Under the pieces are notes generated by a model. It had not been told where the DNA came from. It was given only the letters and a program-made list of their open reading frames with translations, and made no database searches. From a virus: 41,276 bases of DNA. Made by a program: the position numbers and the translations under genes. How positions within the stretch are numbered: the stretch's first letter is position 1; every line of letters begins with the position of its first letter. The DNA lies in UHGV virus genome UHGV-0389628; one strand, 5' to 3'. This document shows, in pieces, positions 5,236-25,623 of the stretch.

Positions 5236-5336
5236 AATATCACCTTCTTTCAAAAGATAGATTGAAATCGTTATCACAATCCTTATAATTAAGTTATCGG
5301 CAGTGCTGTGCCGAAATTTTTTAGGGAGGGATTCCT

Positions 5337-5501
5337 ATGGGAGAACTTTATAAACCCGGCGAAGACAATAAACCAAAAGGAACCTATAAAGAAGTGGGAC
5401 CTCGTGGTGGAAATGTCCAAGGCGGACGAGAAGTAAAAATTGATCCAGGCGACCGATTACCTCCTACTTCTCAAAAAGGAAACAAATGGACTAAGAAATA
5501 G
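5337..5501 (+). CDS. YjzC-like small protein (54 aa) MGELYKPGEDNKPKGTYKEVGPRGGNVQGGREVKIDPGDRLPPTSQKGNKWTKK
   Basis: Perfect RBS AGGGAGGG 6 nt upstream and an intrinsic terminator immediately after. Missed by the ≥60-aa ORF track. Lies on the opposite strand to all neighbours; resemblance to the Bacillus YjzC small-protein family is from memory. Confidence 0.6.
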   Translation: MGELYKPGEDNKPKGTYKEVGPRGGNVQGGREVKIDPGDRLPPTSQKGNKWTKK

Positions 5502-5511
5502 CTTCGTCCAA

Positions 5512-5538
5512 AGCCGGCTTAAATTGGTCGGCTTTTTC
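5512..5538 (+). terminator. Intrinsic terminator after YjzC-like gene
   Basis: Stem agccggc/gtcggct (one G-U pair), 8-nt loop, then TTTTT. Confidence 0.5.
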
Positions 5539-5658: not shown

Positions 5659-5976
5659 TTATCTTTCAGGAGTTGAATACATTTTAACGATATGTGATTT
5701 AGGTTTTGGTTTCTTCTTCCCGCCTGATCTCTCTGGATGCTCTCTGTTGTGACAAGCTACACAGATACATTCAAGGTTATCTACGGACCAGAACAGTGAC
5801 AGGTCTTCCCTCGCCTCGACTATGTGATGGATGATCGTGCCCCTTGTGTTCCGCCCTCGACGCTTGCACTCTTGGCACATGCCGAAGTCCCTAGCTATTA
5901 CTACTTGCCTTAGGTCTCGCCATCGTTTGGTCTTGTATAGTTTGTCTATCTCGTCTCTAGGTCTAGCTTCTTTCAT
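5659..5976 (-). CDS. HNH endonuclease (terminase-associated)
   Basis: HHIVEAREDLSLFWSVDNLECICVACHNREH HNH/zinc-finger motif. Sits just upstream of terS, as in cos-type HK97-like phages. Confidence 0.85.
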   Translation of the reverse strand: MKEARPRDEIDKLYKTKRWRDLRQVVIARDFGMCQECKRRGRNTRGTIIHHIVEAREDLSLFWSVDNLECICVACHNREHPERSGGKKKPKPKSHIVKMYSTPER

Positions 5977-7184: not shown

Positions 7185-7207
7185 AAAAGACCACTCGATG
7201 AGTGATC
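7185..7207 (-). terminator. Intrinsic terminator after His/Ser-rich gene (gaucacuc-auc-gaguggUc + U-run)
   Basis: 8-bp stem with a U-run on the minus strand; nearly identical to the hairpin at 7619..7642. Confidence 0.6.
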
Positions 7208-7208
7208 T

Positions 7209-7601
7209 TTACTTAACTAATTCATCAACGTATTTTTTAATTTTTTTCTGATCTGATTTGTTTAATTTTTTGATTTCTTTCTTTATATGACTCACATCAT
7301 TCTTCTCTTTGCTGTTTCTTGTGCTCCACCAAAAATGCCAAAATAAATGCGAGCTACTTGAACTGCTCTTTACACTAGAACTTTTGCTGCTAGGTTTACT
7401 TGTTTTTGGACTAGTCGACTTAGCGCCACTACTTTTCGACGTACTACTGCTTTTACCAGAAGTATGCGATGATGAGTGAGAACTAACATGGGAACTTGTA
7501 TGAGACGATGTATGTGGACTAACGTGTGGTGAAACATGCACAGAAGTATGGGCAAATCCAATTAGAATTGCTGGCAATGTAATAATAGTTAACAGTTTCA
7601 T
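7209..7601 (-). CDS. Secreted His/Ser-rich repeat protein (130 aa; signal peptide MKLLTIITLPAILIGFA, repeats SPHVSPHTSSHTSSHVSSHSSSH, S/K-rich tract, WHFWW, K-rich C-terminus)
   Basis: Start at 7601 with a perfect AAGGAGG RBS. Flanked by twin terminators. Composition suggests a secreted, possibly metal-binding protein. Confidence 0.7.
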   Translation of the reverse strand: MKLLTIITLPAILIGFAHTSVHVSPHVSPHTSSHTSSHVSSHSSSHTSGKSSSTSKSSGAKSTSPKTSKPSSKSSSVKSSSSSSHLFWHFWWSTRNSKEKNDVSHIKKEIKKLNKSDQKKIKKYVDELVK

Positions 7602-7618
7602 GATTTCCTCCTTAACGT

Positions 7619-7642
7619 AAAAAGACCACTCAAAGAGTGATC
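7619..7642 (-). terminator. Intrinsic terminator/attenuator between the GC-rich leader and the RBS of the His/Ser-rich gene
   Basis: Stem gaucacuc-uuu-gaguggUc then UUUUU, ending 11 nt before the AAGGAGG RBS, leaving no room for a promoter between terminator and RBS. Confidence 0.6.
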
Positions 7643-7649
7643 TAATATG

Positions 7650-7827
7650 TAATAGCAACCTACACACAGGCGGTTATCCTGTCCTCCCTAGGGCTCGCAC
7701 CACACGAGTTCATACCCCCCTCGGTTGCTTAAAGTCACTGGAGTGGAATCGCACCACACACGAGAACTTACCAGGCTCTCACGAGGCTACTCGCCATTTA
7801 CCGTTGCGTCTTCTACTTCCGCCACAG
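7650..7827 (-). ncRNA. Candidate structured leader / ncRNA, about 180 nt and GC-rich (riboswitch- or attenuator-like)
   Basis: A local GC spike in an AT-rich genome with no ORF on either strand. Internal repeats of cucgugug(ug)gugcga, a GGCGAGUAGCC motif, a cccuaggg palindrome, and a 5'-ggcgg…ccgcc-3' closing helix. An intrinsic terminator follows directly, then the RBS of the His-rich gene. Confidence 0.35.
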
Positions 7828-7840
7828 CGATAAAATTTTA

Positions 7841-7868
7841 TTGTGAAAATAAATACTAAGCGTATAAT
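7841..7868 (+). promoter_or_regulatory. Sigma-A-type promoter for the DUF1883-like gene (TTGTGA-16 nt-TATAAT)
   Basis: Consensus-like -35 and -10, followed by the conserved 50-nt leader. Confidence 0.5.
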
Positions 7869-7920
7869 TTTATTTATCAGCGAGTGGTCTGCTGAAATAG
7901 CCGATAAGGAGGCGAAAAAC

Positions 7921-8160
7921 ATGGTGCAGGTTCCTTATGCTGAATCCAGCGGTTCATTATCTGTAAGAGTAGAACTTCAACATACCGCAGATGTATTTTT
8001 GGTCGATTCTACGAACTACAGAAAAATGAACTCTGGTCAAAAATTTAAGTACTACGGCGGACATTACACTAGAACACCGGTAAATATCACAGTCAGTGGT
8101 CCTGGTAGATGGTATTTGATTGTTCGTGGTGGTGGGCAATACAAATATAGATTCTATTAA
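7921..8160 (+). CDS. DUF1883-like small protein (79 aa) …VFLVDSTNYRKMNSGQKFKYYGGHYTRTPVNITVSGPGRWYLIVRGGGQ
   Basis: AAGGAGG RBS 7 nt upstream. The motif pattern (LVDS.N…yyGG…tPV.itVp.sG.W) is recalled from the DUF1883 family. The track's 7843 start would include promoter and leader. Confidence 0.6.
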   Translation: MVQVPYAESSGSLSVRVELQHTADVFLVDSTNYRKMNSGQKFKYYGGHYTRTPVNITVSGPGRWYLIVRGGGQYKYRFY

Positions 8161-8798: not shown

Positions 8799-9023
8799 CA
8801 GCTTTCCCTCCAATACATAAATTAATAGACAACAACGGATGATAGATAATAAGAACAATTTAGAAGGAGTTGAAATTCACATCCTTATTCTTAATATTTC
8901 CGTTGCTGTCTATCGAAGCTTAATTGTGAAACAATAATAAAACGATGTTCCTTTTATTATTATTTTGTCTCAGACCTATCACTAATCTTTCGACACTACC
9001 ATAATATCACGTTAAAACACTCA

Positions 9024-9056
9024 AAAACCCTACACTATCCCTACAAAAACCCTACA
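9024..9056. repeat. Three tandem 11-bp direct repeats (aaaaccctaca / ctatccctaca / aaaaccctaca)
   Basis: One-helical-turn periodicity immediately downstream of arpU, at the head of the leftward late region. The related motif ctatcccta recurs at 11550-11572 in the origin region. Confidence 0.5.
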
Positions 9057-9059
9057 AAA

Positions 9060-9479
9060 TCAACGATACTGAACTAACACGCCTTTTTTGTATGCTTCAG
9101 CAAATTCGATCAATGCGATGGATTTCAGCTTCTCTACATTCTTCTCTCCGTATCCTCGTATCAATTGACCTATTTCATAATTAGAGTGCTTATTTACGTC
9201 ACAGAAGCTGTAGTAGAGTATCTGACGGCTAATCAGACTAAGAGCCATCAAAGCCGCTAGAATCGCATCTCTCTCCGCTTCTATATCCATCATCTGAATG
9301 ATCGCGTCTTCTGCCTTATTACCGTGCTTCGGTGCCTTCGGCATATCGGTTATGATAGGAGACTTAATATCTATCAAAGAGCGACCTGCCATCCGCTCCA
9401 AACGTCGAAAGTTCTTCAGCACATCTCTCGCATTACATCTTGTCTGTTTGAAATCTACCTCTCGTAACAATTTCATCAA
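9060..9479 (-). CDS. arpU: ArpU-family phage late transcriptional regulator
   Basis: 139 aa with a sigma-region-4-like C-terminus. The family was first described in Enterococcus hirae. Lies at the boundary of the replication and late modules. Confidence 0.75.
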   Translation of the reverse strand: MMKLLREVDFKQTRCNARDVLKNFRRLERMAGRSLIDIKSPIITDMPKAPKHGNKAEDAIIQMMDIEAERDAILAALMALSLISRQILYYSFCDVNKHSNYEIGQLIRGYGEKNVEKLKSIALIEFAEAYKKGVLVQYR

Positions 9480-9551
9480 GTCAAACCGCTCCTTTATGTG
9501 ATATAATAAACTTGTTGGGTTTATTACATCAGTCGGAGCGATCCGGCTTTT

Positions 9552-9863
9552 TTATTTGTCATTGATTAGTTCAATATCCACCAATCTCGCCACTGCTAAA
9601 TTCTCTTTGCTTTTCGCTGTCCATTTATCACATTCCATCGTGTTTTCAATACGAATGATCGCTGAGTGATTATAGACGTGTTCTACATATCCACGAAATG
9701 GATAAACGAACCCTTCTGCTTCGCAGCGAACCATGTCACCGACTTTGAATTTTGGTTTCTTACGTTTTTTAGGGTTCTTTGTCGGCATATCTAGCATTAA
9801 ACCGCCGATACCGTGGCTGCTAGCGTAAAATCCGTCTTTTAGTTTCATTCTTTTTCCTCCCAT
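9552..9863 (-). CDS. Small protein, DUF2187/YkvS-like (KVGDMVRCEAEGFVYPFRGYVEHVYNHSAIIRI)
   Basis: Motif resemblance from memory. Confidence 0.45.
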   Translation of the reverse strand: MGGKRMKLKDGFYASSHGIGGLMLDMPTKNPKKRKKPKFKVGDMVRCEAEGFVYPFRGYVEHVYNHSAIIRIENTMECDKWTAKSKENLAVARLVDIELINDK

Positions 9864-10054
9864 TTACGATCATCACTTAATATCGAAATTCCAAACTTAC
9901 GAATAGCATCACTTGCATCAGCAACATACTGGCTTGCCACTTTATATGTTTCTTCTGCTGAAATTCCATATTCTTTTTCAAACTTTGTCTTTAGTACATT
10001 CAGTTCCTGTTTTCTTAGTTTTGTTATTCTGCGGTGCCTGTTGTTCATTTTCAA
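9845..10054 (-). CDS. Hypothetical protein (69 aa)
   Basis: Compact ORF within the operon. Confidence 0.45.
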   Translation of the reverse strand: MKMNNRHRRITKLRKQELNVLKTKFEKEYGISAEETYKVASQYVADASDAIRKFGISILSDDRKWEEKE

Positions 10055-10285
10055 TCAACCCCCTAATCTGAAAGTGTTGTCTATACTTGATCGAAATTCT
10101 TTTAAGTGGTTCTCTACCACAGAATCAGTCACGTTAAAACGATCAATTAATACTGGAGCTGCCATATCTTTCAAATAACTTTGTCTGATGACTAATTCAG
10201 TACCATCAGGAAGTTCTATGTTAACCTCCCGACCATTGATAATTGCTTGAATGCCCGCTTCACTTAGTGGTATTTCGTATTTCAT
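10055..10285 (-). CDS. Hypothetical protein (76 aa)
   Basis: Compact ORF; its stop overlaps the mazG start. Confidence 0.45.
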   Translation of the reverse strand: MKYEIPLSEAGIQAIINGREVNIELPDGTELVIRQSYLKDMAAPVLIDRFNVTDSVVENHLKEFRSSIDNTFRLGG

Positions 10286-10593
10286 TTCACATCCTCCAAA
10301 TCACTCGACTTCACGAATACACCATCTACCATTTTCCCTGTGCGTCCTTTGATTTCGTTGTACGCCATTTCTAAACACTCTTGTATGTTTGTCCCTTTTT
10401 GCATGGAAAGGATAATCAGCGTGACGATTACGTCTCCTACGCTATCTTTAAATAGCTCATCATTACTTCTTGCCATCGCCGATGCTATTTCCCCGAATTC
10501 CTCAGCTACTTTCAAAAACTGTGCTTTTGGATCTGCTTGATCCAATCCCTTATCTTTAGCCCACTGCTCTACTTTTGTGATTAGTTCGTCCAT
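10282..10593 (-). CDS. mazG: MazG-like nucleoside triphosphate pyrophosphohydrolase
   Basis: EEFGEIA … GDVIVTLIIL is the MazG EExxE…D motif pair. Confidence 0.8.
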   Translation of the reverse strand: MDELITKVEQWAKDKGLDQADPKAQFLKVAEEFGEIASAMARSNDELFKDSVGDVIVTLIILSMQKGTNIQECLEMAYNEIKGRTGKMVDGVFVKSSDLEDVK

Positions 10594-10898
10594 TATTTCT
10601 CCTCCACATACCTAAACTGTCGTCCTTTTGAATCAATCCACAAGCTCCTAGCTCTATCCCAGATAATGTTTTTGCTTAATCCAGTGATTTCAGATAACTG
10701 TTCAGCAGTACCTGTTACTAGAATTCGATCACCATGCCAGATTGCAATTTTTCTCGGCGTTTTCCGTTTGGGTTTTTCAGTCCACATTGATTTACCGAGC
10801 TTTTGGACTTCTGCAACTATTTCTTTGTCTTCTTGCCAAGATTCTGACTTGGTTAATTCAGCAATTCTTTTCATTGCTACTTTCTTATCCACGATCAT
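10593..10898 (-). CDS. Hypothetical protein (101 aa)
   Basis: ATGA start/stop overlaps on both sides. Confidence 0.5.
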   Translation of the reverse strand: MIVDKKVAMKRIAELTKSESWQEDKEIVAEVQKLGKSMWTEKPKRKTPRKIAIWHGDRILVTGTAEQLSEITGLSKNIIWDRARSLWIDSKGRQFRYVEEK

Positions 10899-11056
10899 TC
10901 CTCCAATCTACGAATTTTCCTTCTTAAATTCTCTACATGCAAATCGATTGCCTTCCTCGCCGTTTCATTGACCATTACTGCCTTTGTCCGCTCCAGATCG
11001 TCAATCTCACGCTGAAGGCTTCGAATACGCATTTGAATCACTTCTTCTGTTGTCAT
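10898..11056 (-). CDS. Small coiled-coil protein (52 aa) MTTEEVIQMRIRSLQREIDDLERTKAVMVNETARKAIDLHVENLRRKIRRLEE
   Basis: Below the ORF-track threshold; ATGA overlaps with the VRR-NUC stop and the downstream gene start. Confidence 0.4.
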
Positions 11057-11370
11057 GATGATTCCTCCACAATTTTCAATGCTTCTTCCACTGATCGTGC
11101 AACACCATATAGTACAGGTTGCTTTTGCAAAAAATCACCAAACTTCACTTGGTCTGGTCTCAACTTTCCTTTTTCGTTCTTCACTTCAATGGCGAAAAAT
11201 TTTCCCTCTTTAGTCCATCCAAATAAATCTGGCCATCCTTTGGGCAATCCAGTATCGAACCATCTGCCATCAATCGTCTTCACTTTGCCCACATTGCCTC
11301 TATAAACAAAATGACCATATTTTGGTAATTCTCTTCGAATGGCATTTTGTATTTCAATTTCTGCTGTCAT
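11053..11370 (-). CDS. VRR-NUC domain nuclease
   Basis: GWPDLFGW…FFAIEVK PD-(D/E)xK signature. Confidence 0.85.
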   Translation of the reverse strand: MTAEIEIQNAIRRELPKYGHFVYRGNVGKVKTIDGRWFDTGLPKGWPDLFGWTKEGKFFAIEVKNEKGKLRPDQVKFGDFLQKQPVLYGVARSVEEALKIVEESS

Positions 11371-11384
11371 AAGCGCCTCCTTAA

Positions 11385-11690
11385 ATCCAGGGAGGGTTTA
11401 GAATAAATAGGGAGGGTTTAGAAACCGTGTATCCCTTGATACTCTAAGGATTGTTTAATTTTAGGGAGGGTTGGACAGTTTTTCTAGGTTGCTTCTGTAT
11501 TTTTATATATTTCCTTATTTTTATTATTTTATTTACTATATATATAAACTATCCCTACTATCCCTAATAGCTATATAATCCTTGTAGCTCTAAGGTTTAA
11601 GTTCAGGGAGGGTTTATCAAAAACTATCCCTAAACCCTCCCTAGACCATCCCTTTTTTATATTTGTGAAACTTTTTTGTTTCACAATCCC
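11385..11690. repeat. Putative replication origin: iterons plus AT-rich unwinding element plus hairpin
   Basis: agggagggttt occurs four times (11389, 11409, 11462, 11605) plus inverted taaaccctccct (11630). Tandem ctatcccta repeats at 11550-11572. About 50 nt of roughly 90% AT at 11500-11550. Inverted repeat ttgtgaaac-N7-gtttcacaa at 11662-11686. Located immediately past the 3' end (stop codon) of the primase gene. Confidence 0.6.
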
Positions 11691-14017
11691 GGAACTAATA
11701 CGTTAAATTCTCTAAACTCTTTTTTTAAATCAATCCCTATATAACTAATTTTCCCATTTGTTTTTTTCTTCTCAAACCTGTCCGCAGCTTTCTTACCAAA
11801 CTGGGTCTGACTGAATGGATGTTCATTCATATCTCTTGCCCATTTATCGTATGCTTTAAATAGATCCGTTGCCCCGATTGAATAACCAGGTCCTGTTTCG
11901 CAACATTCATCTATAAAAGCACCTATAATATCCATTTCTTTTCGATATTCCATTGTAGCTTTCTGAATATCAGCCGGTGGATTCAACCCTTCTCTTTGCC
12001 ACATCAAACATCCTTCTACTGCCCAATTGAATATTCCTGGCAATTCGCGCATCAATTTTTCTTTCAAATTCTTATCCACTTTATCTAACGGAATTTGTAC
12101 AGTGAAAGGAATTAATGGTAATCTTCGCCAAATACCATCATCATTTCCTCTGATGATTGGCTTATGATTAGTTGCAAGCCAAATCTTATATTTAGGTTTA
12201 TAGTCAAACATGTGGCCTCCTTTATAGGATGCTGACACTTTATCTCCACCAGTTAGTTGTTTGATTAAACCTTCATCCATTCTTACGCCTTCATTTGGCT
12301 CCGAGGACGTTACTAGACGTGCGCCATTTAATCGTGCAATATCTTCGTTATGACCGCTGCTACCACCTTGTTTAACCATCAAGCTCGATGCCTGCATTCC
12401 CATGGCATAACTTCCCATTATTTCAGAAATGATATCTAAGAAAACAGACTTACCATTTCTTCCATTACCGAAAAGGATGAACATGACTTGTTCTCTTATC
12501 GATGCACTCATAGAATACCCAACGGCTTTTTGAATATAGCGAATCAATTCAGTGTTATTGTCAAATATCTGTTCCAAAAACAGCTTCCAACGTGGACAAT
12601 CACTTTTATCCGTATACTCAGCGTTAGAAATTCGAGTGAACATTTTAGAAATATCGTGTTCGTATAAAATGCCATTAGAAAGATCTAAATAACCGTTTTG
12701 AGCGTTGAACAGCATATCATCACTATCAAATTCTTCAGGAAGTATCGCTACTTGGTGCTTCAACTCACGTGTCATAGCTTCTTTTCCAGCATTGTTTCTA
12801 GACCTTCTTAAATGTTTCTCTTTTGCTTCAATATAGGCTTTTTCTTCATCTTCAGTCGCATCTTTAGGTATCGAAACAGGTTCGTTTTTAAATATCTCGA
12901 TAGTCTGATCTACCCATTTTCGAACGGCACCGATATTGTCTTGTTCCCAGTTTTTACCGTTATAAAAATACCAGCATTTATTTACGTAACTGTATTTTGT
13001 AAAGGATCCAAACAAATCAAGATATCTTTCTGCATTCCCTGTATCATCATAGCTATAAAACTTAGTCGGTTTATTATCGTCCACAGTGATACCTGGGATG
13101 GAAAGAAAATAATCATCAGCTGTTTTTTTGCCAGTATAATGATTGGTATTCTCAGATATGGCTTTATTTAAAAGCCCTATTCCATAGGTTGTCTTTCCGC
13201 GTTTCTGATCATATTTATCTCGAAACAACGAAGACATTCGGAATATTTCATCCATCTTTTGAAAATCTCCAGCAGTCCAAAAAGCTAAATCATTTGCAAA
13301 TGCTAAATCTGCTTCAGATTGGCTATCATATATTTTTTCCCATCCTCCATCCATGAACAATCTAAAACGATTACCTGTAGAAGAATTCACCGCTGTTTGT
13401 ATAATCTCGTTGACAGATAAGTCATTTCCATCTGACCAATTACTTTTAGAAAAATCTTGTTTTATTACTGTTTCATTTTCTAAATATCGCTTGTATAAGA
13501 AATTCATTTGGATTTCAGGTATCTCATTAATTTCTTCATTATTACCAAAGAAGTTACCTGTAATAGCAAAGAACCTACCTTCGGTATACATTTCGACATT
13601 CCCTTTTCTGCGTCTTTCTCCAGGGATTGCTGCTTTACCTATAATATGGATTCCCTTGCCACTCATTGATATTTCTGAATATGTTTTTGTAGAATTCATA
13701 AAAACATAAACTAAGTTATTTTCTACATCGCCTTGAAGATACCTTTCTAAATCATCGCCTATATCATCTAAATCAATACCTATATAAGGTGGTTTAAAAT
13801 AAAAAGCTAGGCCATCTGCATTAAAAGTTGAAACAGCTGAGAGAGCGGTCTTGAAATCAGACCACTTGCTCTCATTTGTACTGCTCCCTAATTCTCCAGT
13901 AAACGGATCATAAGGTTTCTTACTCCATTTCCCTCGTTGTTCGTTCCATGAGCGTTTATAAATCCCCCACTGATTTAACTCACGCAACTCTAAGGGAATA
14001 CGCTCGTAATTATTCAT
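11681..14017 (-). CDS. Bifunctional primase-polymerase / P4-family (D5-like) primase-helicase
   Basis: 778 aa with a prim-pol-like N-terminus and a C-terminal Walker A GNGRNGKS typical of P4 alpha/D5. Confidence 0.85.
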   Translation of the reverse strand: MNNYERIPLELRELNQWGIYKRSWNEQRGKWSKKPYDPFTGELGSSTNESKWSDFKTALSAVSTFNADGLAFYFKPPYIGIDLDDIGDDLERYLQGDVENNLVYVFMNSTKTYSEISMSGKGIHIIGKAAIPGERRRKGNVEMYTEGRFFAITGNFFGNNEEINEIPEIQMNFLYKRYLENETVIKQDFSKSNWSDGNDLSVNEIIQTAVNSSTGNRFRLFMDGGWEKIYDSQSEADLAFANDLAFWTAGDFQKMDEIFRMSSLFRDKYDQKRGKTTYGIGLLNKAISENTNHYTGKKTADDYFLSIPGITVDDNKPTKFYSYDDTGNAERYLDLFGSFTKYSYVNKCWYFYNGKNWEQDNIGAVRKWVDQTIEIFKNEPVSIPKDATEDEEKAYIEAKEKHLRRSRNNAGKEAMTRELKHQVAILPEEFDSDDMLFNAQNGYLDLSNGILYEHDISKMFTRISNAEYTDKSDCPRWKLFLEQIFDNNTELIRYIQKAVGYSMSASIREQVMFILFGNGRNGKSVFLDIISEIMGSYAMGMQASSLMVKQGGSSGHNEDIARLNGARLVTSSEPNEGVRMDEGLIKQLTGGDKVSASYKGGHMFDYKPKYKIWLATNHKPIIRGNDDGIWRRLPLIPFTVQIPLDKVDKNLKEKLMRELPGIFNWAVEGCLMWQREGLNPPADIQKATMEYRKEMDIIGAFIDECCETGPGYSIGATDLFKAYDKWARDMNEHPFSQTQFGKKAADRFEKKKTNGKISYIGIDLKKEFREFNVLVPGL

Positions 14018-14523
14018 TAGAATGGAAGATCATTATCTGAAATATCAAATGCTGGTGAGGAATTTACAGATTTTTCAGCGTTGTTTTTCTTCCATTGATG
14101 TTGGAGTTCTGGAAACTTAGTGGTTTCGAATTTTTTAATATTTGTATTGTCATACGTTTTCCCGTTGTACTCCGATTGTTCGTTCTTTACTTTTACTTTC
14201 GCTGGTCTCATAGCAAAATCTTCAAGAAAATTTTCGAATGATTGATATTCCTTTCCATCAGGAAGGCCAAATGATTTCGCTAGTGACATAATCATTCCAC
14301 GATTATATTTGCCAGTTTCTTTACTTTTCCAAACTCTATGGAAAAGATGACTGTTTTGTCGTGGTTGTTTAATATCATTTCTGATGACCATATCAAAATT
14401 AATAAACTCTGTGCCGCCTTTTGAGGCATCTTCCGTAACGTTGAAAATAACTACCTCATAATCTCCGTCTGGTACTGCTCCAAAATCTTGTGCTTCATTG
14501 TAATCTACTTTAAATGCTGTCAT
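14017..14523 (-). CDS. DUF669-like phage protein (putative ssDNA-binding/annealing accessory)
   Basis: 168 aa. Sits in the Gp157–AAA_24–helicase–DUF669–primase cassette recalled from Firmicutes phages. Confidence 0.5.
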   Translation of the reverse strand: MTAFKVDYNEAQDFGAVPDGDYEVVIFNVTEDASKGGTEFINFDMVIRNDIKQPRQNSHLFHRVWKSKETGKYNRGMIMSLAKSFGLPDGKEYQSFENFLEDFAMRPAKVKVKNEQSEYNGKTYDNTNIKKFETTKFPELQHQWKKNNAEKSVNSSPAFDISDNDLPF

Positions 14524-14540
14524 AATTAATTACCTCTTCC

Positions 14541-16064
14541 TTAATAAAATGTATTTTTTACCCATTCGGGTTCTTCTTGTTTTGAATTGAGTTTTTCCAA
14601 AGCCCATTTATAAGCTCTTAAAATTGATTCCATTGATACATCTTTGATCAATGATAATTCTTCTAATTGATCGATGGAGTAATGTTGTCCTTGATAAGCA
14701 GTGAGTGAGCCAAACATTTTAAAAAGCGGATTCCCTTTCCCTTCAAAACTTACCTTTGCTTTTGCAATCGCATAATTTAATTCTAAAGATTGTTTTTTTG
14801 AAAATTTCTTTCTTGAAAGTCGCGCTAGTTTGGCATTTTCTGCATTCAATTCCACCATTTGAACCGCTTCATCAAAAGTAACGGAATTTTCTTTTTCTTT
14901 AATTGCTATTTCTTGTAAGCAGAACGGGCAATGTGGTTTATTTTCTATCTTTAATAAGCTCTTCAGAAGAAACTGCTGTCCACAATTTGAGCAAGTCATT
15001 CTAGGCGCTTCGCTGCTACTTCCATTACTCTTCTTTTTCCTAGCGCTTAACGACCATTCAAATTCATCAGTAGGTAAACCTAAGTTAGCTCCGTTCCCAA
15101 CATGATCTAACACAATTGAAGTCTTATTTTCTCGATATCTCATGCCTCGCATAGACTGTTGTAAATGTAAGACGATTGATTGAGTAGGTCTGCAAAGGAT
15201 AATCACTCCAACATCTGGTACATTAAATCCTTCGCTGATTAAATCGACATTTGATAATATAGTGATTTTTTTCGATTTGAAATTTGCCATAATATCATCA
15301 CGTTCTTTGGTAGGTGTTTTCCCATCTGCATGAACCGCATATATTCCATTGTCGTTAAACCATTTAACAATCATCTTGCTTACCTGAATCGTTGGAGCAT
15401 AAACAATTGCTTGTTGACCATCCGCATATTTTTTATAATTTTTAACAATGTCGCCTTGAATTGTGGCATCTGACTCAAATAATCGTGCAGAACTTTCAGC
15501 TTCACGTGACATATTTTTAAAATCTACTTTAGAACGATCAATCAAAGGAATAGAGTACCAACGATAAGGCGCTAGATTGTGATGATCAATCAACCACTGT
15601 ATGGATGGTCCTTCTACCATTTCTTCGTATATATCTGTAAATCCTTCTCCGTTGAGTCTGTATGGCGTAGCAGTAAAACCTAATCTAGGAATTTCTTTAA
15701 AATGGTTATAGATATCCATATAAGTTTTCGCTTTACCATGATGTCCTTCATCCGTAATTATCAGAGACAGCTTTGGCAATTTATTTAACCTGTTCTTAGC
15801 CATTACAGCTGACAATATTATGACTTTTGATAAATCTACTTCATTTTGTTCAAGAGTTTCTCGAATGTTATCTAGTAACTCTCTCCTGTGGGCAAGAAAT
15901 AGTACTGTGCCACCTTTTCTTGTTGCTAATCGAACAATTTCTGCAATTACAACTGATTTGCCACTTCCTGGTGGCGATTGGATCAATACTCCCTTTTTCC
16001 CTTGAGATAGATGTTTTCTGGCTTCTTGAACTAGCTTAATCTGATACGGTCGGAGTTGATACAT
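14541..16064 (-). CDS. SF2 DEAD/DEAH-box helicase with C-terminal zinc ribbon
   Basis: Walker A SPPGSGKS, DEGHH box, CSNCGQ…CPFC zinc ribbon. Start chosen at 16064 (MYQLRPYQ, RBS GGTGA); the track's 16121 start would overlap the upstream gene by 86 nt. Confidence 0.8.
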   Translation of the reverse strand: MYQLRPYQIKLVQEARKHLSQGKKGVLIQSPPGSGKSVVIAEIVRLATRKGGTVLFLAHRRELLDNIRETLEQNEVDLSKVIILSAVMAKNRLNKLPKLSLIITDEGHHGKAKTYMDIYNHFKEIPRLGFTATPYRLNGEGFTDIYEEMVEGPSIQWLIDHHNLAPYRWYSIPLIDRSKVDFKNMSREAESSARLFESDATIQGDIVKNYKKYADGQQAIVYAPTIQVSKMIVKWFNDNGIYAVHADGKTPTKERDDIMANFKSKKITILSNVDLISEGFNVPDVGVIILCRPTQSIVLHLQQSMRGMRYRENKTSIVLDHVGNGANLGLPTDEFEWSLSARKKKSNGSSSEAPRMTCSNCGQQFLLKSLLKIENKPHCPFCLQEIAIKEKENSVTFDEAVQMVELNAENAKLARLSRKKFSKKQSLELNYAIAKAKVSFEGKGNPLFKMFGSLTAYQGQHYSIDQLEELSLIKDVSMESILRAYKWALEKLNSKQEEPEWVKNTFY

Positions 16065-16776
16065 TCGGTTCACCGCCCGCTCTAACAACCAATTGTTCCA
16101 CCAAACACCCACTACGTTCATCTAATCTGTTTTTTGCATAAACGTTACTAGTAGGCTTTAGTATTAATCCTCTTGTTTCATTACCATCGTCATCTTTTTT
16201 TATTACAAGTCTGCCAACTACATCACATAAGCCTAAAAAATTATTTAAAATTTTTGATCTTATATCTGGCATTGATCTTGTAAAAAATTGTCCATTAGGT
16301 TCTGTATATGTGTCTGTTGTTTCCCATGCAGTCAGGACTATTCGGCAATCTACATTATTCAATGCTCTAAGACCTCGCAAATTCATAAAATCTGTTCTTT
16401 GATAGTCGGCTTGAGAAGGAACACCACTATTTTTTCCTTTCTTGCCTAAATCTTCCAATTGCGCTTTGAACAATTCAGAAATGTTATCTACACAAATATT
16501 GTCGAATTGCTTTTCGTAGGAAGATTTATTTGCAACTAAGTCTGAAATAGTATCAAGCCATTCTTGCCAAATATCAGAAGAATCTAATTCCCACACTTCA
16601 ATATTTTCTTTGTTAGGATGTTTTGCCAATGTCGATGATGATCCGTCAACATCTAATATCAATGATTTACCTGGAAGAAATCCTAAAGAATAAGTTTTTC
16701 CCATACCAGGATTTGCGTAAATCATGTAAGTTCCTTTTTCGACTGATAGATCTTCGGCTTTTATTTTTTTTACCAT
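16036..16776 (-). CDS. AAA_24 / Sak4-like phage ATPase
   Basis: Walker A GMGKTYSLG, 246 aa, adjacent to Gp157 and the helicase. Confidence 0.75.
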   Translation of the reverse strand: MVKKIKAEDLSVEKGTYMIYANPGMGKTYSLGFLPGKSLILDVDGSSSTLAKHPNKENIEVWELDSSDIWQEWLDTISDLVANKSSYEKQFDNICVDNISELFKAQLEDLGKKGKNSGVPSQADYQRTDFMNLRGLRALNNVDCRIVLTAWETTDTYTEPNGQFFTRSMPDIRSKILNNFLGLCDVVGRLVIKKDDDGNETRGLILKPTSNVYAKNRLDERSGCLVEQLVVRAGGEPNVSTPTVSD

Positions 16777-16796
16777 TACTCATACCTCCACTTGCA

Positions 16797-17276
16797 TCAT
16801 CTTATCCTCAAACCTTTTGTTTGGACGAGTTCAGCACCGGGAATATCTCCGTGCTTCAGTTCCTCCTTCAATTGCTTTTTATCCAATTTGGGAGGCACAG
16901 GGGTAAAGAATCCTTTTGGAATTAAGTTCTCGTTTGTTACATTGACCGATATTGGATTATTTTGAATTCCAATGTTGAATAATTCGCCTTTAATCTTCGT
17001 TTTACCAGTCTTTTCCATTTCCTCTTGTAAATAGTGCTTGATACTCTTAGCATTGTTCAAAAGCGATGTCTTACGTTCCTGTAGACGTTTAATTTCACTA
17101 TCGATTAACTCAGCTTTCCCTTCTACTTCTTTAACTATTTTTGCTAAGTTTTCTGCCTTATACTCGATCGCTTCATTAATCGAATCGAGAGTATCGCGAA
17201 GAATTTCTTCATCCAATTGTTCTGCCAGTTCCAGGACTTTGATATATGACTCGCTGAGCTGGTAAAGAGTTGCCAT
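16797..17276 (-). CDS. Siphovirus Gp157-family protein
   Basis: Coiled-coil 159-aa protein; RBS AAAGGAGG. Typical first gene of this replication cassette. Confidence 0.7.
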   Translation of the reverse strand: MATLYQLSESYIKVLELAEQLDEEILRDTLDSINEAIEYKAENLAKIVKEVEGKAELIDSEIKRLQERKTSLLNNAKSIKHYLQEEMEKTGKTKIKGELFNIGIQNNPISVNVTNENLIPKGFFTPVPPKLDKKQLKEELKHGDIPGAELVQTKGLRIR

Positions 17277-17526
17277 TCTTTTGTGCCTCCTTTAATAATT
17301 TTGCAATTTGTTCAAAAGCTAGGATTGCCTCATCTAAATCCAATTCCACAGAATCATCAATTTGCTCGAAAGCAAGGTTTGTTTCTTCAATATCACTTGC
17401 TTGATAGATACCAATTTTTCCATTGTCATAAAGATCAAATACTAAAATTCCTGACGCATCTATATTGCGCAGTTTGTATTCGTCTTTTAAAAAGATGCGG
17501 TCTAGTGTATCCGTTGCAATTAGCAT
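17209..17526 (-). CDS. Hypothetical acidic protein (105 aa); overlaps the next gene by 68 nt
   Basis: ORF with RBS GAAAGGAATGA; the overlap makes the exact extent uncertain. Confidence 0.4.
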   Translation of the reverse strand: MLIATDTLDRIFLKDEYKLRNIDASGILVFDLYDNGKIGIYQASDIEETNLAFEQIDDSVELDLDEAILAFEQIAKLLKEAQKNGNSLPAQRVIYQSPGTGRTIG

Positions 17527-17578
17527 TTACGGTTCATTCCTTTCTGTGGTAAAATATAAAAAGATAGTTTATTCCCCT

Positions 17579-17617
17579 GACACGATCATGCTTGCCGGCG
17601 TTCGTGTCTTTTTTTAT
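17579..17617 (+). terminator. Plus-strand intrinsic terminator with no annotated plus-strand gene upstream
   Basis: Stem gacacga/tcgtgtc, 16-nt loop, then TTTTTTTAT. The minus orientation lacks a U-run. Confidence 0.5.
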
Positions 17618-17703
17618 TTTTCAAAATCACTAATTCTTGAATTATTTCTTCTCTCCTTTTGATATAATTTGAGTAAAAAGGTGTTAAAGCTAAAAGACTC
17701 ATT

Positions 17704-17805
17704 TTAATTGAAAAATTTTTCTTTAATAATCAAATACAAATTAATTATTATTGATCCAATCCCACAAAACATAATTAACAGAAATACAATATCGTCCTTA
17801 CTCAT
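17704..17805 (-). CDS. Tiny hydrophobic peptide (33 aa) MSKDDIVFLLIMFCGIGSIIINLYLIIKEKFFN
   Basis: GGGAGGG RBS 8 nt upstream; single predicted TM helix. Confidence 0.35.
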   Translation of the reverse strand: MSKDDIVFLLIMFCGIGSIIINLYLIIKEKFFN

Positions 17806-17978
17806 TAGTTAGTCCCTCCCGATTGGCTTTTTTGTTCCCAATCTTTTCTTCGCTCGATGTTCTGTTTTGCTAGAATCGTTGACTCGTTATGATGCCACCA
17901 ACGATCAGCGATAATTCTGCCAATTTGTAATACTTATTTTCTACTCATGTGAAACTTATTTGATTGACAAAGTATTAC

Positions 17979-18120
17979 CTATTTTGAATAAATCATTAGA
18001 AAAATTGTAAGCATTAGACATACTAGAACCGCATAGGATGTATACCAGTATTCGCCGCGTTTTCTCATGTAGTTATTTACTAAAACGGCCACGAGATAAA
18101 CACCTAATAAACAGAACCAC
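17979..18120 (-). CDS. Small membrane protein (about 47 aa, GTG start; alternative ATG at 18173)
   Basis: AGGGAGG RBS before the GTG; two hydrophobic segments. Confidence 0.4.
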
Positions 18121-18123
18121 ACT

Positions 18124-18297
18124 TTAGTCAGCCTCCCTGGTTGGCTTTTTTGTTTTGTACTCAGCTTCATCAAGCCCCATAAAAATCCAGACCATGTAAA
18201 CGATCGTTCCTATCAACGCTTGCCTGCTTCCCCAAAGTCCTAAAGCGTAGATGATTAGCGGTGCGCTGAACACTAATGCTCTATTAAATTTTCCCAT
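18124..18297 (-). CDS. Small membrane protein (57 aa) MGKFNRALVFSAPLIIYALGLWGSRQALIGTIVYMVWIFMGLDEAEYKTKKPTREAD
   Basis: AAGGAGG RBS. Its last 10 codons (TKKPTREAD) plus the downstream RBS are duplicated as a start-less remnant at about 17809-17880. Confidence 0.5.
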   Translation of the reverse strand: MGKFNRALVFSAPLIIYALGLWGSRQALIGTIVYMVWIFMGLDEAEYKTKKPTREAD

Positions 18298-18309
18298 CCG
18301 TTTACCTCC

Positions 18310-18537
18310 TTAGACTTTATATTTCGACATGAATTCATCGATATCTTTGATGTCGTATTTCGGACGGCTGTTTTCACCGAAGATGATTACTTTCAACCCT
18401 TTTTTTACCCATTCGTTAATAGTTCCTGCTGAAGTACCTGTATAATGAACCGCTTCTCTTTGATTCAAGTAACGTTTAGGAACGTAGCCTATAAGAAATG
18501 AATCTAAATCATTTTTGTTGATTAGTTCTTGTGTCAT
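18310..18537 (-). CDS. HTH_17 / excisionase-family DNA-binding protein (75 aa)
   Basis: YLNQREAVHYTGTSAGTINEWVKKG helix-turn-helix; RBS AGGAGGG. Confidence 0.55.
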   Translation of the reverse strand: MTQELINKNDLDSFLIGYVPKRYLNQREAVHYTGTSAGTINEWVKKGLKVIIFGENSRPKYDIKDIDEFMSKYKV

Positions 18538-18550
18538 TTCGTTTTCCCTC

Positions 18551-18751
18551 CTATCGAATTTTATGATCGCGAATAACTTCCAGAATAAAGGCGTTAACAG
18601 CTGGGCCTTTATCTTTTCCACTTAAAACACGCTGAATCCAAGTTCTCGATCTACCATATGCAGTGGCCAAATCGTATTCTGAAATATTATTTGCTTTCAT
18701 AAATTCTTTGATGGCTTCCCGCCCATTATCGATATTACTCACTTCACACAC
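18551..18751 (-). CDS. cro: Cro-like XRE-family HTH regulator
   Basis: ISEYDLATAYGRSRTWIQRVLSG HTH; divergent from the cI-like gene. Confidence 0.7.
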   Translation of the reverse strand: MCEVSNIDNGREAIKEFMKANNISEYDLATAYGRSRTWIQRVLSGKDKGPAVNAFILEVIRDHKIR

Positions 18752-18799
18752 TTCCTTTCTTTTTATTTAAAAAGAAAATTGGATAGAAAAGTATATTTT

Positions 18800-18995
18800 T
18801 AGTTGACTGCAAACCATACTATAGTGTAGTATATAGCCATAGTTAAATAAGCATATAACAAGCCTTTTTATCGCACTCGGTCGCCAAACTTAATGCTATA
18901 AGGTGTGTTTTTACTTTGCTTTTTTTCTATCCAATTAACTTACAAAACCAATATACACTATAGTGTTGTTTAGGTCAACACAAAACTACACTTTT
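18800..18995. promoter_or_regulatory. Genetic switch region: divergent promoters and operator repeats
   Basis: TTGACT at 18803. atactatagtgt at 18814 and the perfect 12-bp palindrome acactatagtgt at 18955. agtgtagt/actacact inverted pair at 18823/18983. Confidence 0.5.
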
Positions 18996-19033
18996 TTATT
19001 GGTTTTTTGTAAAGAAAAAAGGAGAATGCTGGT

Positions 19034-19357: not shown

Positions 19358-19362
19358 TTGGA

Positions 19363-19797: not shown

Positions 19798-19883
19798 AAA
19801 AAGCCCGTGCTGCAACACGGACTAAAATCTCGTTTCTAAGATCCTACATATAAATAATATCATAGGAATGAGGAGTAAAAAAG

Positions 19884-25204: not shown

Positions 25205-25450
25205 ATATATTTCCTCCTAATACGTATATAATACGTGTTTTGTTGCAATTAATATTACTTTGTAAAAGGAGTTTTTATAGTGTGAATATATCGCTCAGAT
25301 TACGTTTCAAATTAGATTACTTGTTTAGTATAACACGAATGTAATGGTAACACAAGGCTAACACGATTTAATATAAAGAACTATATTTAAGCATTTAGAA
25401 GAGTTAATTGCAGAACGAAAATACAAATACAATACTGATTAAAATTAAAT

Positions 25451-25473
25451 AAAAAACCACCTTTTGAAGGTGG
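25451..25473 (-). terminator. Intrinsic terminator downstream of the DUF3800-like gene
   Basis: ccaccuu-caa-aaggugg then UUUUUU on the minus strand. Confidence 0.55.
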
Positions 25474-25623
25474 CCCACAAGGGACGGCGTACTTACATTA
25501 CGCTTAATAATTATTATCGTATTCCTTGTGTCGGCAGTGCGAAATTAATTCGCCTGTAAGTTAATCATAAAGTAACTATCTGCTAAATGCAATAGTTATG
25601 CTTAAAAAAATTTAGCTTATTTT

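What the first reader, a model, noticed from the sequence alone, without database searches (positions are those of the whole stretch)
7601..7830. GC-rich ~180-nt leader plus intrinsic terminator directly in front of a secreted His/Ser-repeat protein: riboswitch- or attenuator-like element of unrecognised family
Seen in sequence: a sharp GC spike (…ggcggttatcctgtcctccctagggctcgcaccacacgag…) with no ORF on either strand. On the minus strand it ends in a canonical terminator (gaucacuc-uuu-gaguggUc-UUUUU) only 11 nt before the AAGGAGG RBS of the His-rich gene, so that gene can only be expressed by terminator read-through. The RNA has internal direct repeats (cucgugug(ug)gugcga ×2), a GGCGAGUAGCC segment loosely resembling the conserved GGGGAGUAGC of the Mn(II) yybP-ykoY riboswitch (by memory), a perfect cccuaggg palindrome and a long-range ggcgg/ccgcc closing helix. 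Inference: a metal-responsive riboswitch, or a protein/RNA attenuator, controlling a possibly metal-binding His-repeat exoprotein in a phage. I could not place it in a known RNA family by eye.
Basis: partly seen in the sequence, partly recalled or inferred. Interest (0 to 1): 0.72.

Follow-up and report, generated by a model that had tools for sequence, protein, structure and literature searches.

The report
Phage tRNA-like RNA gene cassette
The GC-rich stretch is not a metal riboswitch but an unannotated phage gene cassette: a tRNA-shaped RNA with no anticodon arm, a second small RNA module and a terminator, and the same kind of cassette recurs in the late-gene leaders and tRNA islands of phages of enterococci and lactobacilli.

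Summary
The sequence features are real: a 55.6% GC block in a 37% GC phage, no credible ORF, and a strong terminator a few bases before the RBS of the His/Ser-rich gene. The riboswitch reading fails. Rfam gives no match. The terminator has no competing antiterminator. The same RNA precedes at least nine different genes, and the His/Ser gene is an insert bracketed by two copies of the terminator.

What is there is a modular non-coding cassette:
- **Module A (7831..7734, minus strand)** is a tRNA-Leu-derived scaffold: a 7-bp acceptor stem, a class-II D arm and a 6-bp T stem, supported by covariation. It has no anticodon arm. Its core is hypervariable (about 24 types, 18-161 nt).
- **Module Z (7729..7654)** is a conserved 7-bp stem around a variable purine-rich interior.
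- **A terminator (7643..7619)** closes the cassette.

The cassette is accessory cargo downstream of the ArpU-dependent late promoter. It occurs in at least 16 Enterococcus species and three lactobacillus genera, often alongside true tRNAs, and once beside a ROOL RNA.

Most likely it yields a non-decoding tRNA mimic cut out by RNase P and RNase Z. That processing and its target are inferred, not shown. I rate it a new variant of a known kind, of moderate to high interest.

The parts
7734..7831 (-). Module A: 98-nt tRNA-Leu-derived tRNA-like RNA. Layout: acceptor 5' strand 7831..7825, U8 G9, D arm 7822..7806, variable core 7805..7760, T arm 7759..7741, acceptor 3' strand 7740..7734. The core holds hairpins GGC-GAGUA-GCC and GAGAGC-CUGGUAA-GUUCUC.
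   Evidence: The 5' half is identical to that of true tRNA-Leu(UAA) genes. Across 34 distinct scaffolds 96% of cells are paired, 6 pairs show changes on both sides (59 cells), and 0 of 500 shuffles reach this. The subtype model is 93.8% paired with one compensatory pair. ARAGORN and Rfam do not call it a tRNA.
7730..7733 (-). 3' trailer UUUA: discriminator U (7733) and U74 (7732). No CCA is encoded.
   Evidence: Position 74 is U in 48 of 49 distinct family members and none encodes CCA. This fits a CCA-less precursor cut by RNase Z, which is an inference from what I recall of B. subtilis RNase Z.
7654..7729 (-). Module Z: a conserved 7-bp closing stem AGCAACC/GGUUGCU with junction bases GAG...GUGUA, around a variable purine-rich interior. 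The interior carries a partial copy of the module A 3' region.
   Evidence: It is present at the 3' end of 46 cassettes, in 17 sequence variants. Only the closing stem is conserved, with 2 compensatory pairs.
7619..7653 (-). Conserved linker AUUACAUAUU (7653..7644) and intrinsic terminator (stem-loop 7643..7623, U tract to 7619).
   Evidence: The same terminator bounds the variable region in phages that lack modules A and Z. Other Enterococcus species have different GC-rich hairpins plus a U tract at the same position.
7209..7613 (-). RBS (7613..7607) and the 130-aa His/Ser-rich ORF (7601..7209). This is an inserted accessory gene (moron), not the regulated partner of the RNA.
   Evidence: The exact protein is on 16 contigs, always between two terminator copies and behind three cassette types. 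It has no Pfam or PHROG family.
7186..7210 (-). Second copy of the terminator (92% identical over 26 nt), followed by the junction UUUUAUUUUG plus RBS that follows the first terminator in other loci.
7841..7868 (+). Sigma-70-like promoter TTGTGA-16-TATAAT for the divergent DUF1883 gene (7921-8160, + strand). It is part of a conserved block of about 70 nt that abuts module A in many loci but drives different cargo genes.
9001..9056 (-). Three TGTAGGG direct repeats (9056..9028) immediately after the arpU stop codon, and a -10-like TATTAT (9006..9001). This is the probable ArpU-dependent late promoter and the likely source of the cassette transcript.
   Evidence: The layout matches the three 7-nt repeats required for ArpU activation in phiFL2A (PMC3753634).
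8824..8914 (-). Module L: a long imperfect hairpin of the late leader. In several relatives module A follows it directly.

Best explanation
The block is an accessory non-coding RNA cassette of an Enterococcus temperate phage. It is not a leader of the His/Ser gene.

Anatomy (shown): it comprises a tRNA-Leu-derived, anticodon-less tRNA-like RNA (module A), a second stem-closed variable module (Z) and an intrinsic terminator. It lies in the variable cargo region between the ArpU-dependent late promoter and the conserved late genes.

Inferred steps:
- It is transcribed late from the ArpU promoter, about 1.2 kb upstream in this phage.
- Module A is cut out like a CCA-less tRNA, by RNase P at the 5' end and RNase Z after the discriminator, and then receives CCA.
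- The product is a stable tRNA-shaped RNA that cannot decode.
- Most transcripts stop at the terminator, leaving a short Z-plus-terminator RNA.

Most likely function (weakest step): the RNA acts in trans, like the true tRNAs that share its slot. It would work as a mimic, decoy or scaffold for a tRNA-binding host or phage factor. The conserved scaffold would provide processing and stability, and the hypervariable core would provide specificity.
For: - tRNA-like scaffold with covariation, and a 5' half identical to that of true tRNA-Leu.
- About 24 unrelated core types of 18-161 nt on one scaffold. The same core also occurs on different scaffold subtypes.
- U74 in 48 of 49 members and no encoded CCA.
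- The cassette travels with true tRNA-Lys(UUU) and other tRNAs.
- Module A also sits in the tRNA island of the virulent myophage Lb338-1, 65 nt from a ROOL RNA. That is outside any late leader, which argues for a trans-acting gene.
- ArpU boxes and the late promoter lie upstream. In some relatives module A follows the leader hairpin directly, as it does in the ORF-free leader of Lacticaseibacillus phage JNU_P9.
- Sibling phages keep arpU, the boxes, the leader hairpin and the terminator but lack modules A and Z, so the cassette is accessory.
- The downstream gene varies and there is no antiterminator.
- The family is in at least 16 Enterococcus species and 3 lactobacillus genera.
Against: - There is no expression, processing or binding data. 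Everything after the anatomy is inference.
- The window copy belongs to the most degenerate scaffold subtype. It has an A1-C72 mismatch, a U-U mismatch in the T stem, no GG in the D loop, and T loop UGCGAUU instead of UUCGAUU. It might therefore fold or be processed poorly.
- The fold of the whole transcript is no more stable than shuffles.
- A hypervariable core would also be expected if only the RNase P and RNase Z determinants are under selection, which is the cis-processing rival.
- No antisense target above chance was found in the window.
- My extraction required 6 of 7 acceptor pairs and 5 of 6 T-stem pairs. This inflates the percentage paired, though not the counts of compensatory changes.
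Confidence: 0.6

Rival explanations
1. Cis-acting processing signal. Module A would be a tRNA-like 'punctuation' element, like plant mitochondrial t-elements or the MALAT1 mascRNA. RNase P and RNase Z would use it to cut the late polycistronic transcript. This would detach upstream RNA, including RNA antisense to the divergent cargo genes. The downstream RNA would then begin with the stable, purine-rich, Shine-Dalgarno-like module Z, which would act as a 5' stabiliser against RNase J1.
For: Only the parts that RNase P and RNase Z recognise (acceptor stem, T arm, D arm) are conserved, while the core is free to vary. The element lies inside the late-operon leader. Z is rich in GAGG/GGAGG-like runs with no start codon at the right spacing.
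Against: A strong terminator follows Z directly, so most cut products would be short RNAs rather than late mRNA. Sibling phages do without it. It also occurs in a virulent phage's tRNA island outside any late leader. Core hairpins are kept by compensatory changes, so the core is not drifting freely.
Confidence: 0.2
2. Decaying tRNA-Leu pseudogene and recombination debris in a hotspot for cargo insertion, with no present function.
For: The window copy has mismatches at pair 1:72 and in the T stem, and a non-canonical D and T loop. The region is a mosaic with deletions between repeats (L059). Genes, including an HNH homing-endonuclease-like ORF, are inserted into module A in some loci.
Against: The scaffold is kept with compensatory changes across about 24 core types, 4 genera, and both temperate and virulent phages. 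The U-U mismatch is shared by all nine distinct sequences of the subtype, so it is a fixed feature rather than fresh decay.
Confidence: 0.12
3. Part of a read-through control system for the late operon. The structured leader (L, A, Z) would act like the lambda PR'-6S-tR' unit or HK022 put RNA and decide whether polymerase passes the terminator into the late genes.
For: No second set of ArpU-box repeats lies downstream of the cassette, and the only minus-strand terminators predicted between 4500 and 9600 are the two copies here. If the promoter at about 9000 is the only late promoter, all late genes need read-through. The architecture arpU, boxes, structured leader, terminator, first late gene recurs in Enterococcus and Lacticaseibacillus phages.
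Against: Phages 4995_1 and B1578 have the same arpU, boxes, hairpin L and terminator without A or Z. If a read-through element exists, it is L or ArpU itself rather than this block. No alternative pairing with the terminator was found.
Confidence: 0.06
4. One reading: a metal-sensing riboswitch or attenuator that specifically controls the His/Ser-rich exoprotein.
For: A terminator sits directly before the RBS and no promoter is predicted in between. The RNA is conserved and structured.
Against: No riboswitch model matches even at E<=10. There is no antiterminator. At least 9 different genes follow the same RNA. The His/Ser gene is an insert bracketed by duplicated terminators. The 'Mn-like' segment is a small covarying hairpin inside a tRNA-like gene.
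Confidence: 0.02

Closest known systems
Class II tRNA-Leu genes and phage tRNA islands
   Same: It has the same acceptor stem, U8 G9 and D arm (GCG-GAAnnGGnAGA-CGC) as true tRNA-Leu(UAA). It has a T arm and a CCA-less 3' end. It sits in arrays with real tRNAs.
   Different: It has no anticodon arm. The T stem is 6 bp, giving a 13-bp acceptor/T stack. The T loop is UGCGAUU in this copy. The discriminator is U rather than A. Neither ARAGORN nor the Rfam tRNA model detects it.
tRNA-like processing elements and RNase P-processed phage RNAs (mascRNA, plant mitochondrial t-elements, P1/P7 C4 RNA and P4 CI RNA) - recalled from memory
   Same: A tRNA-like acceptor/T minihelix would recruit tRNA-processing enzymes to release a non-decoding RNA. 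In C4 and CI a constant frame carries variable, specificity-determining loops.
   Different: There is no sequence or model match. The Rfam scans, which cover every Rfam 15 family, returned nothing in the block. It lies in the late region, not the immunity region. No complementary target was found. Processing has not been tested.
ROOL and GOLLD RNAs
   Same: They share the same niche: prophages and phages of Lactobacillales, next to tRNA islands (PMC5737381; bioRxiv 10.1101/2024.12.08.627333). In phage Lb338-1, module A lies 65 nt downstream of a ROOL RNA.
   Different: This cassette is far smaller (98 nt plus 76 nt). It gives no ROOL or GOLLD match in the window or in 28 related loci. There is no evidence that it forms multimers.
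tmRNA tRNA-like domain and bacterial Y RNA (YrlA) tRNA-like module
   Same: These are also tRNA-shaped domains without an anticodon, used for something other than decoding.
   Different: It lacks the G3-U70 pair (C3-G70 here), a tag reading frame, pseudoknots and a Ro-binding stem. ARAGORN finds no tmRNA in the window and the Rfam scans list no tmRNA or Y RNA family in the block.
yybP-ykoY Mn(II) riboswitch
   Same: Only a loose 10-nt resemblance (GGCGAGUAGC against GGGGAGUAGC).
   Different: No covariance-model hit. The segment is a 3-bp hairpin in a tRNA-like gene. There is no expression platform and no link to a metal-transport gene.

Membership tests
yybP-ykoY Mn(II) riboswitch | Match to the Rfam covariance model (four-helix architecture with conserved L1 and L3 loops) | tested here: not met
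   cmscan of 7500-8000 at E<=10 returned only two chance hits outside the element. The gathering-threshold scan of the whole window returned only DUF3800-I elsewhere.
yybP-ykoY Mn(II) riboswitch | Consistent placement upstream of metal-homeostasis genes | tested here: not met
   At least 9 unrelated small phage genes follow the same RNA in 58 loci.
Riboswitch or transcription attenuator (general) | Mutually exclusive terminator and antiterminator structures | tested here: not met
   Terminator pair probabilities are 0.89-1.0. With its 3' half blocked, the 5' half stays unpaired, and the energy loss of 10.8 kcal/mol (-67.0 to -56.2) is about that of the hairpin alone, -10.3.
Riboswitch or transcription attenuator (general) | Conserved linkage of the RNA to the gene it regulates | tested here: not met
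   The His/Ser gene is an insert between duplicated terminators.
Riboswitch or transcription attenuator (general) | Ligand- or factor-dependent change in read-through | not testable with these tools
   This needs reporter fusions, in-line probing or Term-seq.
Canonical tRNA | 7-bp acceptor stem | tested here: met
   Pairs 1:72 (GC/AU) and 4:69 (AU/GC/GU) covary, and 95% of cells are paired. The window copy has an A-C mismatch at 1:72.
Canonical tRNA | D arm with U8 and the class II D loop | tested here: met
   The sequence matches true tRNA-Leu genes. The three stem pairs never vary, so there is no covariation test. The window copy lacks the GG of the D loop.
Canonical tRNA | Anticodon arm (5-bp stem, 7-nt loop) in the standard position | tested here: not met
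   ARAGORN finds no tRNA in the window and the Rfam scan of 7500-8000 at E<=10 lists no tRNA match. In related loci both tools call only the true tRNA-Lys, never module A. The cores are 18-161 nt of unrelated hairpins.
Canonical tRNA | 5-bp T stem with a UUCRANY loop | tested here: not met
   The T stem is 6 bp in all 34 scaffolds, with 4 covarying pairs. The loop is UGCGAUU in this copy, and the stem has a U-U mismatch.
tRNA-like RNA processed by RNase P and RNase Z (mascRNA, t-element, C4/CI type) | Acceptor/T-arm minihelix with a 3' trailer suited to RNase Z (no CCA, U after the discriminator) | tested here: met
   U74 is present in 48 of 49 members and no CCA is encoded.
tRNA-like RNA processed by RNase P and RNase Z (mascRNA, t-element, C4/CI type) | Actual cleavage by RNase P and RNase Z, and CCA addition | not testable with these tools
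   This needs in vitro cleavage assays or end-mapping RNA-seq.
tmRNA | tRNA-like domain with G3-U70, a tag reading frame and pseudoknots | tested here: not met
   ARAGORN finds no tmRNA. The 3:70 pair is C-G. The RNA is only 98 nt.
ROOL / GOLLD | Match to the Rfam models | tested here: not met
   No match in the window or in 28 related loci. ROOL was found only next to the Lb338-1 copy.
Intrinsic (Rho-independent) terminator | GC-containing hairpin followed by a U tract, conserved in position | tested here: met
   It is present at the same junction in relatives with and without the cassette, and other species have alternative hairpin sequences there.

The most novel reading that the evidence does not exclude
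Phages of Lactobacillales carry a previously unrecognised class of RNase P/Z-processed, anticodon-less tRNA mimics. A conserved tRNA-Leu scaffold would display a hypervariable effector core. These RNAs would be made late in infection alongside tRNAs (and, in one phage, ROOL). They would act as decoys or specificity modules in phage-host or phage-phage conflict, for example against toxins that attack or modify tRNA acceptor ends or class II tRNAs.
Probability: 0.3. Interest if true: 0.8.

Novelty: new variant of a known kind. Interest (0 to 1): 0.6.

Why it matters
tRNA mimics are known from tmRNA, Y RNAs, viral tRNA-like structures and mascRNA. A widespread phage family that keeps a tRNA-Leu frame while swapping its core among about two dozen forms has, as far as I could find, not been described.

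- It is absent from Rfam 15.
- ARAGORN does not detect it.
- It is unannotated in every GenBank phage record I inspected.

It occupies the same 'tRNA island' niche as the enigmatic ROOL and GOLLD RNAs, so it may bear on what those islands are for.

It also exposes a regulatory puzzle. In these phages the late genes appear to lie behind a conserved terminator downstream of the ArpU promoter.

On the practical side, it shows that GC-rich gaps in phage late leaders can be RNA genes rather than leaders of the next ORF.

Tried and rejected
- **Known RNA families.** I ran Rfam at gathering and at E<=10 on the window and on about 40 related loci. The only matches were tRNA-Lys, other tRNAs, one ROOL, DUF3800-I and Ref1C, none of them on this block.
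- **tRNA or tmRNA.** ARAGORN found none in the window.
- **Whole-element folding.** The minus strand gives z = +0.15 and the plus strand z = -2.4. I rejected the plus strand because tRNA-Lys, the terminator and the scaffold covariation all define the minus strand.
- **Antisense regulator.** The number of complementary matches of 11-14 nt is at the level expected by chance. The only longer hits are to the duplicate terminator.
- **Cassette promoter.** I first read the conserved block upstream of module A as the cassette's own promoter. It is a plus-strand promoter for divergent cargo genes.
- **Shared structure inside module Z.** Only the closing stem is conserved.
- **Group I intron in the long cores.** No Rfam intron hit.
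- **Link to published sRNAs.** I tried to match the cassette to sRNA_1930 and sRNA_1940 of E. faecium Aus0004. The paper and its stored supplements give coordinates only, and the gene table is cut short.
- **Literature search.** Searches for a described tRNA-like RNA in Enterococcus prophages found nothing relevant.
- **The other GC peak (34.6-34.9 kb).** It lies inside the tape-measure gene.
Full report
**1. Setting**

The window is an Enterococcus temperate siphophage. It is 96% identical to E. faecium phage 4995_2 over 9200-20000. Genes around the finding run on the minus strand:
- an ArpU-family late activator at 9479..9060 (phrog_248);
- small ORFs;
- the GC-rich gap;
- the His/Ser-rich ORF at 7601..7209;
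- further small genes;
- an HNH endonuclease at 5976..5659, with terminase genes beyond it, as shown by near-identical contigs.

One divergent plus-strand gene, DUF1883 at 7921-8160, abuts the gap. It has its own promoter, TTGTGA-16-TATAAT, at 7841-7868.

**2.

- Positions 7654-7831 are 55.6% GC against a window mean of 37.2% (sd 5.4%). Only a stretch inside the tape-measure gene matches this.
- There is no credible ORF.
- The terminator at 7643..7619 is real: 9 pairs, dG -10.3 kcal/mol, then UUUUU. The RBS starts 5 nt after the U tract.
- The direct repeats, the GGCGAGUAGCC segment and the CCCUAGGG palindrome are all present.
- The proposed ggcgg/ccgcc closing helix is not supported. See section 4.

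**3. It is not a known RNA family and does not behave like a riboswitch**

- Rfam 15 gives nothing in 7500-8000 even at E<=10. In the whole window it finds only an unrelated DUF3800-I RNA at 25564..25445. ARAGORN finds no tRNA or tmRNA.
- In the full transcript the terminator pairs with probability 0.89-1.0. When its 3' half is blocked, the 5' half remains unpaired. So there is no antiterminator alternative.
- The whole 221-nt RNA folds no better than shuffled sequence (z = +0.15).

**4. Relatives show a modular cassette**

E. hirae phage EH-TP1 has the same 5' and 3' ends, but 547 nt lie between them, including a true tRNA-Lys(UUU). Pattern scans of viral contigs returned 21 and 57 loci. In 46 of these both ends are present, giving 38 distinct cassettes of 156-765 nt.

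Every cassette starts with module A and ends with module Z. Between them lie zero to several other modules: tRNA-Lys, further tRNA-like hairpins and other structured segments. A terminator follows, directly or after one more module.

The window has the minimal form, A + Z + terminator. Relative L004 has CCACC with no compensating change.

**5. Module A (7831..7734) is a tRNA-Leu-derived, anticodon-less tRNA-like RNA**

*Origin.* Its first 26 nt are the acceptor strand, U8 G9 and a class II D arm (GCG-GAAnnnnnAGA-CGC). They match true tRNA-Leu(UAA) genes recovered by the same pattern from unrelated bacteria. Those genes also end in CCAGCGAC.

*Scaffold.* The 3' end is a T arm plus the acceptor strand, but the T stem has 6 pairs instead of 5. 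Across 34 distinct scaffolds:
- 96% of cells are paired;
- 6 pairs carry changes on both sides (59 cells);
- none of 500 shuffles reaches the observed covariation score;
- slid controls drop to 27-45% paired.

My extraction required a mostly paired acceptor and T stem. That inflates the percentage paired, but not the compensatory counts.

*Core.* Between the D and T arms there is no anticodon arm. Instead there are about 24 unrelated cores of 18-161 nt, usually one to three hairpins. The most common 36-nt core is two small hairpins capped by UGUG and UUCG tetraloops. The same core can sit on different scaffold subtypes.

*This copy.* The window's 46-nt core forms two hairpins. GGC-GAGUA-GCC covaries to GGU-GAAUA-ACC. 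GAGAGC-CUGGUAA-GUUCUC has G-U to A-U and G-C to G-U changes. Overall 93.8% of cells are paired.

*3' end.* No member encodes CCA, and position 74 is U in 48 of 49. From memory, this is what CCA-less tRNA precursors cut by RNase Z look like in Bacillus.

*Degeneracy.* The window copy belongs to the most degenerate subtype. It has an A-C mismatch at pair 1:72, a U-U mismatch in the T stem shared by all nine subtype sequences, no GG in the D loop, and T loop UGCGAUU.

**6. Module Z (7729..7654)**

Z has a conserved 7-bp closing stem (AGCAACC/GGUUGCU) with two compensatory pairs, and conserved junction bases (GAG...GUGUA). Its interior is variable and purine-rich, with no shared fold. In the window the interior contains a partial copy of the 3' part of module A, which explains the direct repeats. 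One relative (L059) is a deletion between those repeats. A conserved UACAUA linker and the terminator follow.

**7. The His/Ser gene is an independent insert**

- After the terminator, 58 loci carry at least nine different first genes.
- The exact His/Ser protein is on 16 contigs. In the eight places examined it lies behind three different cassette compositions and always between two copies of the terminator.
- The second copy, at 7210..7186, is 92% identical over 26 nt. It is followed by the junction that follows the first copy elsewhere.
- In L065 the terminator is followed directly by the MDSLDF... gene, which in the window follows the His/Ser gene.

So the RNA is not that gene's dedicated regulator. 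It remains true that no promoter is predicted between the terminator and the RBS. The His/Ser gene therefore appears to depend on read-through, and so does every gene downstream.

**8. Where the transcript comes from**

Three TGTAGGG repeats (9056..9028) and a TATTAT (9006..9001) lie immediately after the arpU stop codon. Three 7-nt direct repeats in exactly this position are required for ArpU-dependent activation of the late promoter in phiFL2A (PMC3753634). A long hairpin, module L (8914..8824), follows.

In several relatives module A follows L directly. In others, including the window, 250-1400 nt of small ORFs and divergent cargo genes lie between them. Lacticaseibacillus phage JNU_P9 has the same layout with no ORFs at all: arpU, three repeats, a promoter, a leader of about 400 nt with two tRNA-like modules, a terminator, then the first late gene.

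Phages 4995_1 and B1578 share arpU, the boxes, L and the same terminator, but carry protein genes instead of A and Z. The cassette is therefore accessory cargo in the late-operon leader, and the terminator is the conserved boundary of that cargo region.

How late transcription passes this terminator is unresolved.

**9. Distribution and annotation**

The scaffold occurs in prophage-like regions of at least 16 Enterococcus species, five Lacticaseibacillus species, two Schleiferilactobacillus species and Furfurilactobacillus. It is also in sequenced Lacticaseibacillus phages, where nothing is annotated under it.

In the virulent myophage Lb338-1 it lies in a tRNA island, 65 nt downstream of a ROOL RNA (213 bits). 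ROOL and GOLLD are known to lie near tRNA islands in phages and prophages (PMC5737381; bioRxiv 10.1101/2024.12.08.627333). Its presence outside any late leader, among tRNA genes, favours a trans-acting RNA gene over a purely cis-acting leader element.

**10. Mechanism**

*Shown:* the anatomy, the covariation, the modularity, the accessory status, the variable downstream genes and the absence of an antiterminator.

*Inferred:* late transcription from the ArpU promoter; excision of module A by RNase P and RNase Z with CCA addition; and a non-decoding role.

My best guess is a tRNA mimic, decoy or scaffold whose variable core confers specificity. I put this at about 0.4 on its own, and about 0.6 for the broader statement that it is a processed tRNA-like accessory RNA.

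Rivals:
- a cis processing or stabilising signal (0.2);
- a decaying pseudogene (0.12);
- part of a read-through control system (0.06);
- the riboswitch model (0.02).

No antisense target was found in the window.

**11. Novelty**

I found no description of this family in Rfam or in the searched literature. Two uncharacterised sRNA candidates in an E. faecium Aus0004 prophage (PMC5593968) might correspond to it. This could not be checked.

I class it as a new variant of a known kind, namely tRNA-derived mimics in phage tRNA islands.

Noticed in passing
window 25445-25564 (- strand): A DUF3800-I RNA (RF02969, 80 bits, E = 5.8e-11), a known but functionally uncharacterised motif, lies elsewhere in the same phage.
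   Followed up: no
window 9001-9056 and 8824-8914 (- strand): Three TGTAGGG repeats and a TATTAT lie right after arpU, forming the probable ArpU-dependent late promoter. A conserved long hairpin (module L) follows. No second set of TGTAGGG repeats lies downstream of the cassette, so the late genes appear to sit behind the terminators at 7643..7623 and 7210..7186. How polymerase reads through them is unknown.
   Followed up: partly
window 7841-7895 (+ strand): A conserved block of about 70 nt (promoter TTGTGA-16-TATAAT plus a 5'-UTR hairpin TCAGCGAGTGGTCTGCTGA) is joined to the 5' end of module A in more than 20 loci but drives different divergent cargo genes. Its GAGTGGTCT matches the 3' half of both terminators. 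On the minus-strand RNA, 7890..7877 is 13/14 complementary to 7201..7188.
   Followed up: partly
L132 (Lactobacillus phage Lb338-1) 1792-2364 and 2429-2526: A ROOL RNA (213 bits) lies 65 nt upstream of a module A copy in the tRNA island of a virulent myophage. No ROOL or GOLLD was found in the other 28 loci scanned.
   Followed up: partly
L131 (Lactobacillus phage JNU_P9) 380-840: arpU is followed by three G(G/T)TGGGAA repeats, a TATGAT, and an ORF-free leader of about 400 nt holding two tRNA-like modules. One of these scores weakly against the tRNA-Sec model. A terminator and the first late gene follow. Nothing is annotated there.
   Followed up: partly
L044, L098, and L005/L007/L011/L016/L017/L019/L021: Protein-coding inserts, including an HNH homing-endonuclease-like ORF in L044, sit immediately after the D arm of module A, and the 3' half of the module is lost. 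The scaffold seems to be a target or hotspot for mobile genes.
   Followed up: no
window 7762-7780 (- strand): The loop of the second core hairpin reads CUGGUAA here and CUAGUAA, UUAGUAA or CUAGUAG in relatives. This resembles a Thr anticodon loop (GGU/AGU, with U33 and A37). However, it sits on a 6-bp stem in the variable-arm position.
   Followed up: no
window 5262-5535 (+ strand): Another divergent cargo unit lies between the HNH and terminase genes. It has a strong promoter TTGAAA-16-TATAAT (5262-5289), a 54-aa ORF (5337-5501, matching PF14168:YjzC in near-identical contigs) and its own terminator (5510-5535).
   Followed up: no
L038/L048/L071/L072, cassette interior: Further unannotated tRNA-like modules occur, for example an 11-bp stem enclosing two T-arm-like hairpins (GUAGAGUUCAAAUCUCUA and GUUGGUUCAAUUCCAAC). 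L102 and L092 carry tRNAs with unusual anticodon loops.
   Followed up: no
E. faecium Aus0004 2399192-2399705 (from PMC5593968): Two RNA-seq-derived sRNA candidates (sRNA_1930 of 105 nt and sRNA_1940 of 298 nt) lie in prophage phiEnfa003.
   Followed up: partly
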